Shown here: positions 1,732 to 5,360 of the stretch, piece by piece | Layout: each line of letters opens with the position of its first letter | How positions within the stretch are numbered: the first letter of the stretch is position 1 | Source of the DNA: a virus | Lineage: Duplodnaviria; Heunggongvirae; Uroviricota; Caudoviricetes | Reading direction: 5' to 3' (one strand) | Virus record (IMG/VR): IMGVR_UViG_3300022758_000450 | DNA length: 5,360 bases | The notes under the pieces: model-generated | Told to the model about the DNA's origin: nothing | The model's database searches: none | What the model saw: only the letters and a program-made list of their open reading frames with translations | Position numbers and translations under genes: made by a program

Positions 1732-1983
1732 TTACTTTGTAAGTTCTAGAACTCGTTGAGCCAGCCCTTTAAATTGTTCGTTAAAGGCGTCTCTGCTTGA
1801 TTTCATTGTATTTAAGGCATGCCCAAATTGCCCTGAATCGCGAATTTGCTGATCACTGATGGAGAAAACAGGTGTCGCTAGTTGTTGGCTTATTGCGATT
1901 AATGAGTTGAAATCGGAAATATGCGCAAGATCATAGGCTGATAAATCTCCACTGACTGTTGTTTTGTTAATTGCATGTTGCAC
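1732..1983 (-). CDS. Hypothetical small protein (83 aa), distal gene of the ParA-like cassette
   Basis: Track ORF with GTG start at 1983, placed 1 nt after the TAA (1985-1987) that closes the ParA-like reading frame, which suggests coupled translation. Followed by the terminator. No recognisable motif. Confidence 0.5.
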   Translation of the reverse strand: MQHAINKTTVSGDLSAYDLAHISDFNSLIAISQQLATPVFSISDQQIRDSGQFGHALNTMKSSRDAFNEQFKGLAQRVLELTK

Positions 1984-1984
1984 T

Positions 1985-2815
1985 TTATCTCGTGGAATTA
2001 TGCAGGTAATTTTTTTCTAGATTTGGCACTAAGATCGAATCAACAGCATCACGGATAGCTGCCATCCATTTTTCGAAAGATTTTACAGGTGCTCCTTTAC
2101 GCGGCCTGTATCTCTGCTGAATCATACCTAGAAACTGCGGTGCATTTTTTAATTGATTGTGAAGAGTTACCATCATTATTTTCTTTAAATAATGCTAATT
2201 CTTTGTGCCAGCGAGGTATATTTTTTTGAGAGAGAGCGAATTGCTTGCCAGCAAAAAAAGTCTGGAGCTACAGGTACGATAAAATAGTCACTTGACATGA
2301 GAACTACTTCATTTAAACCTCCAACATTAGGGCTGAGATCATAAAGAATGTAATCAATATTATTCTTCATGGCGATTAGCTGTAATATTTTTTGGCAGGT
2401 TCCCTGGTATATTTTCTTGTAGCAGGAATACCAGCAGCAATTTTTTAGAGAAACACTTATCTGTGAATCTAAGTCCGAAACATCTAAATGTCCGGGAAGA
2501 AGCAGAAGGTTTTTCATGCAGTGTAGGGTGTAATTTTCCCGTTTCTTTTTCAAGGTATGCTTCAGGTTGTCCGCCATTAATCAAATATTCTACAATAGGT
2601 CCAAGAGTTAAGTTATCTCTGCTAGAATAAAAAGAATCTAAACCCTCATCAATCTTTTCATAGCCAAGAACCATTCCTGTTAGATTACATTGCGAATCAA
2701 GGTCAACCATCAATACTTTCTTGCCTTCATCCGCAAGTGCCCATCCAAGATTGAAGGTTGTTGTGGTTTTACTTACCCCACCTTTATGATTAAAAAAACA
2801 AATTGATTTTGTCAT
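1985..2815 (-). pseudogene. ParA/Soj/MinD-family P-loop ATPase gene, reading frame broken twice (+1 then -1)
   Basis: Track ORF 2360..2815 gives the N-terminus with deviant Walker A (MTKSICFFNHKGGVSKTTTTFNLGWALADEGKKVLMVDLDSQ). ORF 2185..2577, in another frame, gives the Walker B region (IDYILYDLSPNVGGLNEVVLMSSDYFIVPVAPDFF), closely matching Soj YDYIIIDSPPALGPL...IIPIQCEFF. ORF 1985..2176 is back in the first frame and resembles a ParA C-terminal region. Total span is about 277 codons, typical for Soj-type ParA. AAGGA lies 9 nt upstream of the ATG at 2815. Confidence 0.7.
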
Positions 2816-2984: not shown

Positions 2985-3746
2985 CTAAAGCCGGTTGTAT
3001 TTAATTGATTCGTGTATCAATGCTTTGCCCATAACATAAAGTTGATCTTGGGACTTCTCATCAATGTACCATTTCTCATAGGCTGGATTATCCGAAAGAA
3101 CGGCGAGTTTGTTGCCTTGCATTTGTAGACGTTTAACGTGGAACGTCTTACCATAAACGAAAGAGTAAACACCATCAGTTTGGAAGTTGCGAACAGAAAT
3201 GTCGACAAACAGTCGATCTCCGGAAACTAGAGTAGGGGACATGCTGTCGCCATTTACAGTCATAACTTTAATATCATCTTGAGAACGATTACCGAAAAGA
3301 GAACGGGCATGCTCTGTTGTGAACTCAATGGCGTAGAGCACATCAACATAGTCTGAAAGCATATAGGTCCCAGGTCCTGCGCTAACGCTAAGATCCAAAA
3401 CTTCTATCCTGTATACATCGGGTTTTGTTGGATTGGGGATGCTTGCCATTTCCTTACATCCTTCTCTCTCACCAACACCATATTCTAAATATGAAGCTGA
3501 TACCCCCAGAGCCAATGCAAGTTTATTCATGACAGAGGCACGAGGCTTCGCAGCGCCGATTGTGTATCGCCGCGCCATTTCATATGTAACGCCCACAAGA
3601 CTTTTGAGTTGGGTGACAGAAATTCCCTTGTTTGTCATTAGCTCGTTTAGTCTCTTGGCGAAATCTGGATACTTCTGTTCTTCTACCATAGGTAGAAGAT
3701 TACTCGCATCACATACGCTAGTCATTTCTATTTTAAGTAGTTGCAT
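2985..3746 (-). CDS. cI: CI-type phage repressor: N-terminal HTH (XRE family) plus C-terminal LexA-like S24 autopeptidase domain
   Basis: Track ORF. HTH segment FAKRLNELMTNKGISVTQLKSLVGVTYEMARRY; probable Ala-Gly cleavage site in LSVSAGPG; catalytic Ser in VNGDSMSPTL and Lys in HVKRL. Divergent from the cro-like gene with operators between. Start is ambiguous (ATG at 3746, 3725 or 3689); none has an SD, consistent with a leaderless PRM-type transcript. Confidence 0.88.
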   Translation of the reverse strand: MQLLKIEMTSVCDASNLLPMVEEQKYPDFAKRLNELMTNKGISVTQLKSLVGVTYEMARRYTIGAAKPRASVMNKLALALGVSASYLEYGVGEREGCKEMASIPNPTKPDVYRIEVLDLSVSAGPGTYMLSDYVDVLYAIEFTTEHARSLFGNRSQDDIKVMTVNGDSMSPTLVSGDRLFVDISVRNFQTDGVYSFVYGKTFHVKRLQMQGNKLAVLSDNPAYEKWYIDEKSQDQLYVMGKALIHESIKYNRL

Positions 3747-3795: not shown

Positions 3796-4059
3796 ATGTC
3801 ATCTCAAAACTACACAGAGAAAGCAGTAAAAGCTGCGGGAAAATCTTTATCTGAAGTAGCCCGTCACTTTGGTTTTAAGTCCACTCAATCCGTCGCTAAT
3901 TGGGTAATTAACAATCAAGTCCCGTCAGAACGGGTTTTACAACTTTGTGAGTTGGGAAACTGGTCCGTGACCCCTCATGAACTGCGTCCTGATATTTACC
4001 CCAATCCAAATGATGGATTACCTGAGTGCTATTCAAAAGTTAGCGGTTCAGCTGCGTAA
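3796..4059 (+). CDS. cro: Cro-like small HTH regulator (YdaS-type Cro/CI family)
   Basis: ATG at 3796 with GAGGAG (3784-3789) 6 nt upstream. 87-aa protein with HTH segment KSLSEVARHFGFKSTQSVANWV. Divergent from the repressor gene across the operator region. Confidence 0.8.
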   Translation: MSSQNYTEKAVKAAGKSLSEVARHFGFKSTQSVANWVINNQVPSERVLQLCELGNWSVTPHELRPDIYPNPNDGLPECYSKVSGSAA

Positions 4060-4087
4060 ACGTAACCACAGAAACGAGGAGTTAACC

Positions 4088-4645
4088 GTGGGTAAGCATC
4101 ACTGGAAAGTAGAAAAACAGCCTGAGTGGTACGTGAAAGCAGTCAGAAAAACTATCGCAGCGTTGCCGGGGGGTTACGCTGAAGCTGCTGACTGGCTGGA
4201 CGTAACAGAGAACGCATTATTTAACCGCCTTCGTGCCGATGGCGATCAGATTTTCCCGCTGGGATGGGCAATGATTTTGCAACGTGCTGGTGGAACTCAC
4301 TTCATTGCTGACGCTGTGGCGCAGTCTGCAAATGGCATCTTTGTGTCTCTTCCTGACGTCGAGGATGTGGACAATGCCGATATTAACCAGCGTCTGCTGG
4401 AAGTCATTGAACAGATCGGCAGTTATTCCAGACAGATTCGTTCAGCAATTGAAGACGGTGTAGTGGAACCGCATGAGAAGACAGCAATTAACGACGAGCT
4501 GTATCTCTCAATTTCGAAGCTGCAGGAGCATGCAGCACTTGTCTACAAAATTTTTTGCATTTCAGAAAGTAATGACGCCCGCGAGTGTGCAGCTCCGGGC
4601 GTCGTGGCGTCGATTGCTTCTGGTTGTGGAGAAACTAACGCATGA
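4088..4645 (+). CDS. CII-like / YdaT-family early regulator (185 aa from GTG start)
   Basis: Track ORF 3977..4645. Preferred start is GTG at 4088, same frame, with GAGGAG (4076-4081) 6 nt upstream and no overlap with cro. Position (directly after cro, before the replication gene) and size match the YdaS-YdaT arrangement recalled from Rac-type prophages. Stop TGA overlaps the next ATG (ATGA at 4642-4645). Confidence 0.65.
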
Positions 4646-4980
4646 ACAGTTTAACAACACACTACCGTCGCTCGCAACTGATTGCGCTTCCTGTACCGGG
4701 TGGAAAAGCGAAGGTGGAATATTGCTATGCAGTAAATGTACCAGGTGACAGGGAAATTGTAACCCACAGCTTTGCAGAGTGGGCTGTGGGGGATTTCAAC
4801 CGGCAGAAGGAGACAGTCCTTTGCGACAAGTTAACCGCTGGTTCAAAGATCACTACGGAGTGCCCGTCAGAGTCATTCGTTGGGAGCCGGAAACACAACG
4901 GGTTATCTACCTCCGCGAAGGTTATGAGCATGAATGCTTCAGTCCGCTCGAACAGTTTCGTCGTAAATTCAGGGAAATAG
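4642..4980 (+). CDS. Hypothetical small protein; reading frame ambiguous (alternative frame 4779..5000), possibly frameshifted
   Basis: ATG at 4642 is coupled to the upstream stop (ATGA), with GGAG about 11 nt upstream. The first ~55 residues look protein-like, but the C-terminal third is S/T/N-rich. The overlapping frame 4779..5000 (GTG start, no SD) looks more protein-like downstream of about 4800 and ends 8 nt past the O-like ATG. Confidence 0.35.
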
Positions 4981-4989
4981 AGGTCGGTC

Positions 4990-5360
4990 ATGAGCACTAA
5001 ATTAACCGGCTATGTATGGGATGGTTGCGCAGCGTCAGGCATGAAATTATCCAGCGTGGCAATTATGGCCCGCCTGGCTGATTTCAGTAATGACGAAGGT
5101 GTGTGCTGGCCATCAATTGAAACCATTGCCCGTCAGATTGGCGCGGGGATGAGTACCGTCAGGACGGCTATCGCACGGCTGGAAGCAGAAGGCTGGTTAA
5201 CGCGTAAGGCGCGTCGCCAGGGTAACCGCAATGCGTCGAATGTTTATCAGCTTAACGTTGCGAAGCTTCAGGCAGCGGCATTTTCTCAACTGTCAGATTC
5301 TGACCCGTCAAAATCTGACGCATCAAAATCTGACCCGTCAAAATTTGATGCGTCGAGTCG
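4990..5360 (+). CDS. Phage replication initiator, O-like, N-terminal HTH DNA-binding domain (5' partial; continues beyond window)
   Basis: ATG at 4990 with AGAGG 6 nt upstream. N-terminus MSTKLTGYVWDGCAASGMKLSSVAIMARLADFSNDEGVCWPSIETIARQIGAGMSTVRTAIARLEAEGWL is the winged-helix N-domain typical of lambdoid prophage replication proteins (recalled as Rac YdaU-like), followed by a repetitive SDPSKSD linker. No stop before the window ends. Confidence 0.85.
   Translation, partial: MSTKLTGYVWDGCAASGMKLSSVAIMARLADFSNDEGVCWPSIETIARQIGAGMSTVRTAIARLEAEGWLTRKARRQGNRNASNVYQLNVAKLQAAAFSQLSDSDPSKSDASKSDPSKFDASS
5299..5360. repeat. Iteron-like 15-bp tandem direct repeats inside the replication initiator gene (candidate origin); array runs off the window
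   Basis: TCTGACCCGTCAAAA (5299-5313), TCTGACGCATCAAAA (5314-5328), TCTGACCCGTCAAAA (5329-5343), then a degenerate TTTGATGCGTCGAGT (5344-5358). Each unit has an internal dyad TGAC-NNN-TCA. Confidence 0.6.

What the first reader, a model, noticed from the sequence alone, without database searches (positions are those of the whole stretch)
5284..5360. Iteron-like repeats embedded in the linker-coding region of the O-like initiator (candidate origin)
Seen in sequence: at least three 15-bp tandem units (TCTGACSCRTCAAAA) plus a degenerate fourth, each with internal dyad symmetry, encoding the repetitive SDPSKSD linker. Established knowledge: in lambda the origin iterons lie inside the O gene and are bound by the O N-terminal domain. 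Inference: this is the replication origin of the element. The array is cut by the window edge, so copy number and any adjacent AT-rich unwinding region are not visible.
Basis: partly seen in the sequence, partly recalled or inferred. Interest (0 to 1): 0.5.

Follow-up and report, generated by a model that had tools for sequence, protein, structure and literature searches.

The report
Lambda-style replication origin inside initiator gene
The 15-base repeats are real and are very probably the initiator-binding sites of a phage replication origin that lies inside the initiator's own gene, as in phage lambda; this is an ordinary design, but the origin of this very common E. coli/Shigella prophage family does not appear to have been described.

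Summary
Observation confirmed. Three exact TCTGACNCNTCAAAA units sit at 5299-5343, with a degenerate fourth at 5344-5358 (0.25 expected by chance). The window is the immunity/replication region of an SfII/SfIV/e14-like lambdoid prophage. The gene starting at 4990 encodes an initiator with an HTH_36 winged-helix N-domain, a predicted disordered linker and a C-domain homologous to lambda O (hhalign 99.6%).

In near-identical relatives the array has 4-6 units. A ~65-bp block follows that is almost invariant across Enterobacterales and holds a short palindrome, two GATC sites and the gene's least stable, A-rich 40 bp.

In 62 homologues the repeat codons are fixed at synonymous sites: Ser TCT 91% against 9% elsewhere in the same genes, Ser TCA 90% against 17%, Lys AAA 100% against 61%. 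Selection therefore acts on the DNA, not the peptide.

Three N-domain types each carry their own unit centre (CGCG-like, ACGT, CCCC). N-domain, repeats and block move together while C-domains swap. One relative has a lambda P gene immediately downstream.

The origin reading is well supported, but binding and firing are untested. It is a new member of the lambda ori-in-O kind, of modest interest.

The parts
4990..5360 (+). 5' part (123 codons) of the O-like replication initiator gene, cut by the window end. Full length is 313 aa in relatives.
   Evidence: ORF read. 98-100% identical full genes in L001, SfIV and SfII. PHROG 391 'replication initiation O-like', E 8e-136. C-domain (outside the window) homologous to lambda O aa 171-278, hhalign prob 99.6%, E 9e-24.
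5056..5199 (+). Winged-helix DNA-binding core of the N-domain (aa 23-70), the presumed repeat-binding module.
   Evidence: Pfam HTH_36, E 9e-12. The AF2 model shows helix-turn-helix plus a beta-hairpin wing, with pLDDT 75-88. Foldseek finds only generic MarR/ArsR winged helices.
5292..5304 (.). Perfect 6+1+6 palindrome GTCAGA-T-TCTGAC at the head of the array. It is one more copy of the junction core TCA(A/G)A(A/T)TCTGAC.
   Evidence: Read directly. It matches the 12-mer core with 1-2 mismatches in SfIV.
5299..5313 (+). Repeat unit 1, TCTGACCCGTCAAAA (SDPSK).
5314..5328 (+). Repeat unit 2, TCTGACGCATCAAAA (SDASK).
5329..5343 (+). Repeat unit 3, TCTGACCCGTCAAAA (SDPSK).
5344..5358 (+). Repeat unit 4, degenerate: TTTGATGCGTCGAGT here, TTTGATGCGTCGAAA (FDASK) in relatives.
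5357..5360 (.). Last four bases, GTCG, which depart from AATC in all relatives. This may be a rearrangement joint or a sequence-end artefact. The rest of the origin (unit 5, palindrome, GATC/A-rich block) would lie beyond the window.
   Evidence: All megablast matches stop at query base 717 of 721. No exact match in viral or metagenome contigs, and plasmid matches also stop 4 bases short.

Best explanation
The repeats are the iterons of a lambda-type replication origin placed inside the initiator gene of an SfII/SfIV/e14-like lambdoid prophage.

Shown:
- The gene at 4990 encodes a two-domain initiator: a winged-helix N-domain and a lambda-O-type C-domain, joined by a predicted disordered linker.
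- The DNA coding for that linker carries 4-6 head-to-tail 15-bp units, TCTGAC-nCn-TCAAAA.
- After a short variable spacer comes a ~65-bp block that is nearly invariant at every codon position. It holds the palindrome CCGTCAGAATCTGGCGG, two GATC sites and the A-rich, least stable stretch of the gene.
- The constraint is on the nucleotides, not on the peptide.
- Repeat type goes with N-domain type.
- N-domain, repeats and block are inherited together.

Inferred by analogy with lambda:
- After early rightward transcription (cro, ymfL, ymfM, then the initiator), the N-domains bind the units.
- They build a multi-protein complex that bends the DNA and strains the adjacent A-rich block open.
- The lambda-O-like C-domain then brings in the host DnaB helicase. 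In relatives this goes through a lambda-P-type loader; in this element, which has no P gene, the partner is unidentified.
- The pentapeptide repeat SDxSK is then largely a by-product of the DNA requirement: 12 of 15 bases are fixed, and the free triplet is the variable residue.

The register of binding cannot be decided in silico. It could be the inner dyad TGAC..GTCA, the junction dyad GTCA-AAATC-TGAC, or a monomer per 15-bp unit.
For: 1. The array is real and non-random. In the whole 39.8-kb SfIV genome it is the top-scoring tandem repeat. Eight of the 13 near-matches to the 12-mer core (3.5 expected) fall within 106 bp.

2. Nucleotide-level constraint, measured on 257 units from 62 genes of many genera. 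Ser1 is TCT in 91% (9% in the folded domains of the same genes). Ser4 is TCA in 90% (17%). Lys is AAA in 193 of 193 (61%). Glu is GAA in 30 of 30 (55%). No AGY serine codon occurs (46%).

3. In the block after the array, columns with a conserved amino acid use the majority codon 91% of the time, against 55% in the N-domain of the same 61 genes (Mann-Whitney p = 7e-6).

4. The peptide can change while the DNA is kept. L084 has TCTGAACGTCCAGAA, giving PETER/PESER where relatives have SERSK.

5. The linker is predicted to be disordered (pLDDT below 50 for aa 102-160), so a fold does not explain its conservation.

6. Specificity pattern. Recognition helix STVR.. goes with unit centre C[GCA]C[GA], STVI.. 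with ACGT, and TTVS/STVK with CCCC/GGGG.

7. Modularity. About 40 loci share only aa 1-168 and carry a different C-domain, Phg_2220_C. P0036 joins a group-B N-domain and group-B repeats to the query's C-domain.

8. Replication context. The C-domain is homologous to lambda O. A lambda P gene lies directly downstream in Rahnella L086. In lambda the four iterons are annotated at the same relative place in O and are followed by an A-rich tract and the palindrome TCGTCAGAGAATTCTGGCGA, which resembles the one here (PMC7466680).

9. The least stable 30-40 bp of the gene lies in the block next to the array.

10. Copy number varies in whole units: 4, 5 or 6 in near-identical phages and 2-9 across the family. 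Another HTH_36 O-like gene (phage Min27) has a different, 24-bp repeat at the same position.
Against: - There is no experimental evidence of binding, unwinding or origin activity for any member. I found no paper describing this origin.
- The A-rich block is only 64-68% A+T and z = 1.7 against the locus, much weaker than lambda's AT-rich region.
- Units abut at a 15-bp period, unlike lambda's 18-bp iterons spaced 20-24 bp apart, and the dyads are short.
- This element has no P-, DnaC- or DnaB-like gene after the initiator.
- The covariation rests on only three N-domain groups, which are also three clades.
- Among near-identical copies, SNP density in the array and block is not clearly lower than elsewhere.
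- Several prophages have collapsed arrays of 0-1 units (P0016, P0034, P0069). These may be defective, but this was not shown.
Confidence: 0.75

Rival explanations
1. The repeats are binding sites for the initiator (or another protein) that serve regulation rather than initiation, for example autorepression, a transcriptional roadblock or copy-number 'handcuffing'. The true origin would lie elsewhere.
For: The same evidence for a cis-acting, N-domain-linked DNA element fits this reading. Iterons of plasmid replicons are known to do both jobs (established knowledge).
Against: No other repeat cluster exists in the SfIV genome that could serve as an origin. The layout (repeats, then an easily melted A-rich block with GATC, at the N/C junction of an O homologue) is that of lambda ori.
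Confidence: 0.08
2. The array is only a low-complexity, slippage-prone coding repeat for a flexible charged linker (SDxSK)n, with no function as DNA.
For: The units are in frame and 5 codons long. Copy number varies by whole units. The linker is predicted to be disordered.
Against: Selection on the peptide does not predict frozen synonymous sites across genera: TCT 91% against 9%, TCA 90% against 17%, AAA 100% against 61%. It also does not predict that the DNA motif is kept while the peptide changes, or that the next 65 bp are invariant at third positions.
Confidence: 0.07
3. The conserved DNA is a recombination 'linker' at a module boundary. It looks conserved because recent homologous exchange between mosaic lambdoid phages passes through it, not because it functions in replication.
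For: The block sits exactly where C-domains are swapped. Lambda's annotation places recombination joints in the same part of ori.
Against: The block is flanked on both sides by diverged sequence in dozens of genera. This would require many independent transfers of about 60 bp. The idea also does not explain group-specific 15-bp units or their codon freezing. A boundary role and an origin role are compatible, as in lambda.
Confidence: 0.05
4. The region encodes or overlaps a structured RNA, such as an antisense or regulatory hairpin.
For: There is one sub-threshold Rfam hit to a microRNA hairpin model on the palindromic repeats (30.7 bits against a gathering score of 97).
Against: No Rfam family reaches threshold. 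The hit is what tandem short dyads give by chance. The conservation pattern is a 15-bp DNA period, not paired covariation.
Confidence: 0.02

Closest known systems
Bacteriophage lambda ori / O protein (and Stx-phage 933W/P27 variants with six iterons)
   Same: - The origin lies inside the initiator gene at the junction of the DNA-binding N-domain and the C-domain.
- It has several direct repeats with internal dyad symmetry and an A-rich centre (lambda TCCCTCAAAACGAGGGA; here GTCAAAATCTGAC).
- An A-rich, easily melted tract and a short palindrome lie next to the repeats (lambda TCGTCAGAGAATTCTGGCGA; here CCGTCAGAATCTGGCGG).
- The C-domain is homologous (40% identity, hhalign 99.6%).
- Iteron number varies between relatives, and extra iterons add residues to the protein.
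(PMC7466680)
   Different: - The N-domain belongs to another Pfam family (HTH_36, not Phage_rep_O) and does not align with lambda O.
- Units are 15 bp and abut head to tail, rather than 18 bp spaced 20-24 bp apart.
- The palindrome lies before the A-rich block, not after it.
- The A-rich block is weaker (64-68% A+T) and carries two conserved GATC sites.
- This element has no P gene.
O-like initiator of Stx phage Min27 / phi24B type (HTH_36)
   Same: It has an HTH_36 N-domain, 43% identical over aa 25-94. A tandem in-frame repeat with internal dyad starts right after the N-domain.
   Different: The repeat is unrelated: 24 bp x 2.9, GGTGGGGCAGGAGCTGCCCAGG, encoding GGAGAA. The C-terminal part differs, and a large 'P' gene follows.
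Iteron origins of plasmids (for example P1 oriR, pSC101, R6K; established knowledge, not tested here)
   Same: Winged-helix initiators bind tandem direct repeats next to an A+T-rich unwinding element. In P1 oriR and oriC, GATC sites in the unwinding region link firing to Dam methylation.
   Different: Plasmid iterons are usually 17-22 bp and intergenic. Their Rep proteins belong to the Rep_3 family and work with DnaA boxes. None of these features was found here.

Membership tests
Lambda-type origin within the initiator gene (ori-in-O) | Three or more direct repeats (iterons) inside the initiator gene, at the boundary between the DNA-binding and C-terminal domains | tested here: met
   Units lie at window 5299-5358, corresponding to aa 104-123. 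The N-domain ends near aa 100 and the C-domain starts near aa 162. Lambda's iterons lie at O codons 117-145.
Lambda-type origin within the initiator gene (ori-in-O) | Iterons have internal dyad symmetry | tested here: met
   The family consensus TGACGCGTCA (group A) and TGAACGTTCA (group C) are perfect 10-bp palindromes. The window's own units are symmetric at 8 of 10 positions. GTCAGATTCTGAC at 5292-5304 is perfect. Arms are short, and the repeat finder reported none.
Lambda-type origin within the initiator gene (ori-in-O) | A+T-rich unwinding region directly beside the iterons | tested here: inconclusive
   The least stable 30-40 bp of the gene (L001 5770-5809) lies 50-90 bp after the array. 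It is only 64-68% A+T, with z = 1.7 against the locus. It lies beyond the window end.
Lambda-type origin within the initiator gene (ori-in-O) | The DNA element is constrained independently of the protein it encodes | tested here: met
   Synonymous sites are frozen in the repeats and the block. The DNA is kept while the peptide changes.
Lambda-type origin within the initiator gene (ori-in-O) | Iteron sequence matches N-domain specificity, and the two are exchanged together | tested here: met
   Three N-domain groups each have a distinct unit centre. Recombinants keep N-domain, repeats and block together with different C-domains. There are only three groups, so phylogenetic linkage is not excluded.
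Lambda-type origin within the initiator gene (ori-in-O) | The initiator N-domain binds the repeats, and the region supports replication | not testable with these tools
   This needs EMSA or footprinting and a plasmid replication assay.
Lambda O protein family | N-terminal domain Pfam PF04492 (Phage_rep_O) | tested here: not met
   Only HTH_36 and other generic winged-helix models hit the N-domain. Lambda O hits PF04492 at E 6e-36. hhalign aligns only the C-domains.
Lambda O protein family | C-terminal (P-interacting) domain homologous to lambda O | tested here: met
   hhalign aligns aa 166-286 with lambda O aa 171-278 at 40% identity, probability 99.6%, E 8.6e-24. This part of the gene is outside the window.
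Lambda O protein family | Partner helicase-loader gene (P) immediately downstream | tested here: not met
   In L001 and SfIV the next genes are yfdN (PerC-like) and a methylase or LexA-like gene. The feature is met in the relative L086, where PF06992 hits at E 7e-63.

The most novel reading that the evidence does not exclude
This may be a distinct, very widespread class of lambdoid origin, present in about 39% of complete E. coli genomes and across Enterobacterales. Abutting 15-bp initiator sites would dictate a pentapeptide-repeat linker. A universal block with two GATC sites, shared by initiators of different specificity and often lying near a phage Dam/MT-A70 methylase gene, would act as a methylation-gated unwinding or helicase-entry site. 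Such an origin could fire without a phage-encoded P-type loader.
Probability: 0.25. Interest if true: 0.55.

Novelty: new member of a known kind. Interest (0 to 1): 0.35.

Why it matters
This prophage replication module matches in 2,097 of 5,426 complete E. coli genomes (1,909 of them over at least 80% of the query). It also occurs in the serotype-converting Shigella phages SfII and SfIV and in relatives from Klebsiella to Yersinia and Providencia. Its gene is annotated only as 'helix-turn-helix domain-containing protein' or 'primosomal protein', and no origin is marked.

Placing the origin gives three practical gains:
- a testable minimal replicon;
- a marker for telling replication-competent prophages from decayed ones (collapsed arrays, or the K-12 e14 gene cut at codon 78);
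- a clean natural example of a DNA element dictating a protein's linker sequence.

It does not change the concept of how lambdoid phages start replication.

Tried and rejected
- **Literature.** Searches for SfIV/SfII/SfV/e14 origins, for iterons in prophage O genes and for the unit sequence itself found no description. The SfV (2002) and e14 (2004) genome papers are not held.
- **Rfam.** Nothing reached threshold on the window or the locus.
- **The repeat finder, inverted.** No pairs at its thresholds, because the dyads are too short.
- **Extending the window's own end.** The last 22 bases have no exact match in viral or metagenome contigs, and all E. coli, phage and plasmid matches stop 4 bases short.
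- **Population SNP density** in 81 near-identical copies does not discriminate the array or block from the domains: 0.09-0.13 against 0.13-0.16 variable sites.
- **GC skew** of the SfIV genome follows gene orientation and says nothing about an origin.
- **PDB.** The sequence search and Foldseek give only generic MarR/ArsR winged helices.
- **A 37.7-kb circular 'plasmid' record** of this phage type was considered as evidence of episomal replication. Its initiator ORF is not intact in the record, so it was dropped.
- **'Replication protein 15'.** This source name on a Pantoea homologue suggested phage phi80, but no phi80 record matched the protein.

Full report
**What the window is.** The 5,360-base window is the immunity and early-right region of a lambdoid prophage of the SfII/SfIV/e14 type.

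It encodes the following:
- an S24/HTH repressor at 2985-3746 on the minus strand;
- a Cro/YdaS-like protein at 3796-4059;
- YmfL, a CII (CP76)-like protein, ending at 4645;
- YmfM at 4642-4980;
- a DUF4222 ORF at 4821-5000.

From 4990 it also encodes the first 123 codons of a protein that PHROGs calls 'replication initiation O-like' (phrog_391, E 8e-136). The last 721 bases match 16 phage records, including SfII and SfIV, and 2,097 of 5,426 complete E. coli genomes at 95-99.6% identity. I used E. coli EC93 (L001; window position = L001 position minus 361) and SfIV (L002, L170) to read past the window end.

**The observation.** TRF reports a period-15 array at 5299-5354. The degenerate pattern TCTGACNCNTCAAAA matches exactly three times in a row at 5299-5343. 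With up to two mismatches allowed, 0.25 matches are expected, and none of 200 shuffles reaches three. A degenerate fourth unit follows at 5344-5358. The units are in frame and encode SDPSK/SDASK/SDPSK/FDAS.

One oddity remains. The last four bases of the window (GTCG) differ from AATC in every relative, and this sequence was found nowhere. I therefore cannot say what follows unit 4 in this particular copy.

**What lies beyond the window in relatives.** The full gene is 313 codons. The array has 4.3 copies of 15 bp, or equally well 2.1 copies of 30 bp.

It is preceded by a perfect palindrome GTCAGA-T-TCTGAC (window 5292-5304). A degenerate fifth core, TCGAAATCTGGC, follows it. Next comes a short variable spacer, then this stretch:

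TTTCACCCGTCAGAATCTGGCGGGGATCCGTCAGTAAAATCAAAACATGATCCGTCAGATAAAAAACC.

That stretch contains:
- a near-palindrome, CCGTCAGAATCTGGCGG;
- three GAYCCRTCAG cores spaced 21 and 24 bp apart;
- two GATC sites;
- the least stable 30-40 bp of the whole gene (L001 5770-5809; 64-68% A+T).

In the complete SfIV genome the array is the best-scoring tandem repeat. Eight of the 13 near-matches to the 12-mer core TCAAAATCTGAC (3.5 expected) lie within 106 bp.

**The protein.** The N-terminal 100 residues are a winged helix: Pfam HTH_36 at E 9e-12, an AlphaFold model with pLDDT 75-88, and Foldseek hits to generic MarR/ArsR folds only. Residues 102-160, the part encoded by the repeats and the block, have pLDDT below 50, which predicts a disordered linker.

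Residues 166-286 align with lambda O residues 171-278 at 40% identity (hhalign probability 99.6%, E 8.6e-24). The N-domain does not align with lambda O and does not hit lambda's PF04492. The protein is therefore an O-type initiator with a different DNA-binding head.

**Is the DNA or the peptide under selection?** This is the decisive computational test. I collected 80 loci from one genome per species and four more by exact protein look-up. In 62 genes with the group-A architecture I found 257 repeat units. Their position matrix is T C T G A C [G/C/A] C [G/A] T C A A A A.

Synonymous sites inside the units are almost fixed. The controls are the folded domains of the same genes:

| Position in unit | Codon | In repeats | In the folded domains |
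|---|---|---|---|
| First Ser | TCT | 91% | 9% |
| Second Ser | TCA | 90% | 17% |
| Lys | AAA | 193 of 193 | 61% |
| Glu | GAA | 30 of 30 | 55% |
| Asp | GAC | 81% | 48% |
| Phe | TTT | 83% | 27% |
| Ser, any AGY codon | AGC/AGT | 0% | 46% |

The block after the array is conserved at all three codon positions from Escherichia to Yersinia, Rahnella and Providencia. Columns with a conserved amino acid use the majority codon 91% of the time there, against 55% in the N-domain of the same 61 genes (third-position information 1.63 against 0.63 bits; Mann-Whitney p = 7e-6).

In one E. coli relative (L084) the unit TCTGAACGTCCAGAA differs by one base from the group consensus and encodes PETER/PESER instead of SERSK. 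The DNA motif is kept while the peptide changes.

A disordered linker under peptide selection would not behave like this. The element is cis-acting DNA, and the SDxSK repeat is largely its translation.

**Specificity and modularity.** Three N-domain types exist, and each has its own unit:

| Recognition helix | Group | Unit |
|---|---|---|
| STVR.. | A (includes the window) | TCTGA-C[GCA]C[GA]-TCAAAA |
| STVI.. | C | TCTGA-ACGT-TCA(A/G)AA |
| TTVS../STVK.. | B | (A/G)TTGA-CCCC-TCAA.. alternating with its inverse GGGG form |

The arms TGA...TCA and the 15-bp period are common to all three. The centre is group-specific.

All three groups share the GATC/A-rich block. The first GATC is present in 75 of 76 genes and the second in 68 of 76. 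This suits a common unwinding or loading site rather than a specificity site.

About 40 loci share only residues 1-168 with the query (N-domain, repeats and block, 65-83% identical) and then carry a different C-domain, Phg_2220_C. Protein P0036 joins a group-B head and group-B repeats to the query's C-domain. Head, repeats and block therefore travel as one unit, as the O N-domain and ori do in lambdoid hybrids. The caveat is that three groups are also three clades, so descent alone could give the association.

**Replication context.** In Rahnella (L086) a gene of this family is followed directly by a lambda P homologue (PF06992, E 7e-63).

In lambda itself the four annotated iterons lie at O codons 117-145. 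They are followed by an A-rich tract and the palindrome TCGTCAGAGAATTCTGGCGA. This closely resembles CCGTCAGAATCTGGCGG here, and the two encode homologous peptides (SENSGE and SESGG). Lambda and Stx-phage work shows that such iterons bind O, that they are needed for replication even when mutated synonymously, and that extra iterons lengthen the O protein (PMC7466680).

Here copy number varies in whole units: 4, 5 or 6 in 81 near-identical IMG/VR copies and 2-9 across the family. A more distant HTH_36 O-like gene, in Stx phage Min27, has an unrelated 24-bp x 2.9 dyad repeat at the same position. Placing repeats just after the DNA-binding head therefore seems general for these initiators.

**Most likely mechanism.**

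Shown:
- the anatomy;
- the DNA-level constraint;
- the domain homologies;
- the co-inheritance of head, repeats and block.

Inferred by analogy with lambda:
- The initiator's winged-helix heads occupy the 15-bp units and build a higher-order complex.
- That complex stresses the neighbouring A-rich GATC block open.
- The lambda-O-like C-domain then recruits the helicase-loading machinery.

Unknowns:
- The binding register is undecided: the inner dyad TGAC..GTCA, the junction dyad GTCA-AAATC-TGAC that resembles lambda's TCCCTC-AAAAC-GAGGGA, or one monomer per unit with the wing in the A-tract.
- The loader in this element is unidentified. It has no P, DnaC or DnaB gene, and yfdN (PerC-like) follows the initiator.

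**Rivals.**
- A regulatory rather than initiating role for the same binding sites cannot be excluded. It is disfavoured by the lambda-like layout and by the lack of any other repeat cluster in the genome.
- A purely coding slippage repeat is contradicted by the synonymous-site data.
- A 'recombination linker' would need many independent 60-bp transfers, does not explain the group-specific units, and is compatible with an origin in any case.
- A structured RNA has no support.

**Verdict.** In kind this is the known lambda arrangement. It is a new, apparently undescribed member, with a different DNA-binding head and abutting 15-bp iterons. It is useful for annotation and as a clean case of DNA dictating a linker peptide, but it is not conceptually surprising. 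Interest 0.35. Confidence in the origin reading is about 0.75, pending binding and replication assays.

Noticed in passing
window 5357-5360: The last four bases (GTCG) differ from AATC in every relative. No collection holds the 22-mer that ends the window. This may be a deletion or insertion joint, or an end artefact, so this copy's array may be interrupted after unit 4.
   Followed up: partly
window ~1732-2815 (minus strand): The ParA-family gene is one intact 1,077-base ORF in E. coli EC93 (L001 2099-3175). In the window it is broken into several ORFs (151, 130, 63 and 83 aa). It is probably a pseudogene, which hints that this prophage copy is decaying.
   Followed up: no
L001 5775-5795 (window-equivalent ~5414-5434); methylase genes at L001 6783-7436, L028 4316-5545, L086 4601-5143, L075 3951-4946: Two GATC sites in the post-repeat block are conserved (75 of 76 and 68 of 76 genes). 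A phage Dam or MT-A70 methyltransferase gene lies one or two genes downstream of the initiator in several relatives. This may link methylation to origin firing.
   Followed up: partly
L001 6289-6783 (gene after the initiator): No P-, DnaC- or DnaB-like gene follows the O-like gene in this phage type. The next gene is yfdN, whose C-terminal half is PerC-like and whose N-terminal 100 aa have no known function. The Rahnella relative L086 has a lambda P gene at this position (3900-4604). How the helicase is loaded here is open.
   Followed up: partly
L169 2729-2792 (phage Min27, O gene): Another HTH_36 O-like initiator carries an unrelated 24-bp x 2.9 tandem repeat with internal dyad (GGTGGGGCAGGAGCTGCCCAGG, encoding GGAGAA repeats) directly after its N-domain. 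It is probably that phage's own iterons.
   Followed up: partly
L088 5671-5904 (E. coli K-12 e14, oweE): In K-12 the homologous gene is fused to a terminase fragment after codon 78. e14 therefore lacks the whole repeat array and block, which is consistent with it being a non-replicating remnant.
   Followed up: yes
L087 658-690 (lambda 39,157-39,189) against L001 5744-5760: Lambda's ori palindrome TCGTCAGAGAATTCTGGCGA and the palindrome CCGTCAGAATCTGGCGG here are similar at DNA and peptide level (SENSGE and SESGG). They sit on opposite sides of the A-rich tract. Some relatives (L008, L013, L019) carry both copies.
   Followed up: partly
L170 28455-28493 (SfIV): The only other tandem repeat in the SfIV genome is 20 bp x 2 (TGTATCTCGTGGGTACATTA), just beyond the 3' end of the repressor gene.
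   Followed up: no
window 4642-5000: ymfM (annotated in K-12 as a cell-division inhibitor) and a DUF4222 ORF overlap in different frames immediately upstream of the initiator. The DUF4222 stop overlaps the initiator's start codon region, which suggests translational coupling.
   Followed up: no
alignment A1: P0016, P0019, P0029, P0034, P0069: Several prophage copies have linkers collapsed to 0-1 repeat units. P0034 is seen on 128 Salmonella contigs. If the array is the origin, these should be replication-defective, which would be a natural test set.
   Followed up: no
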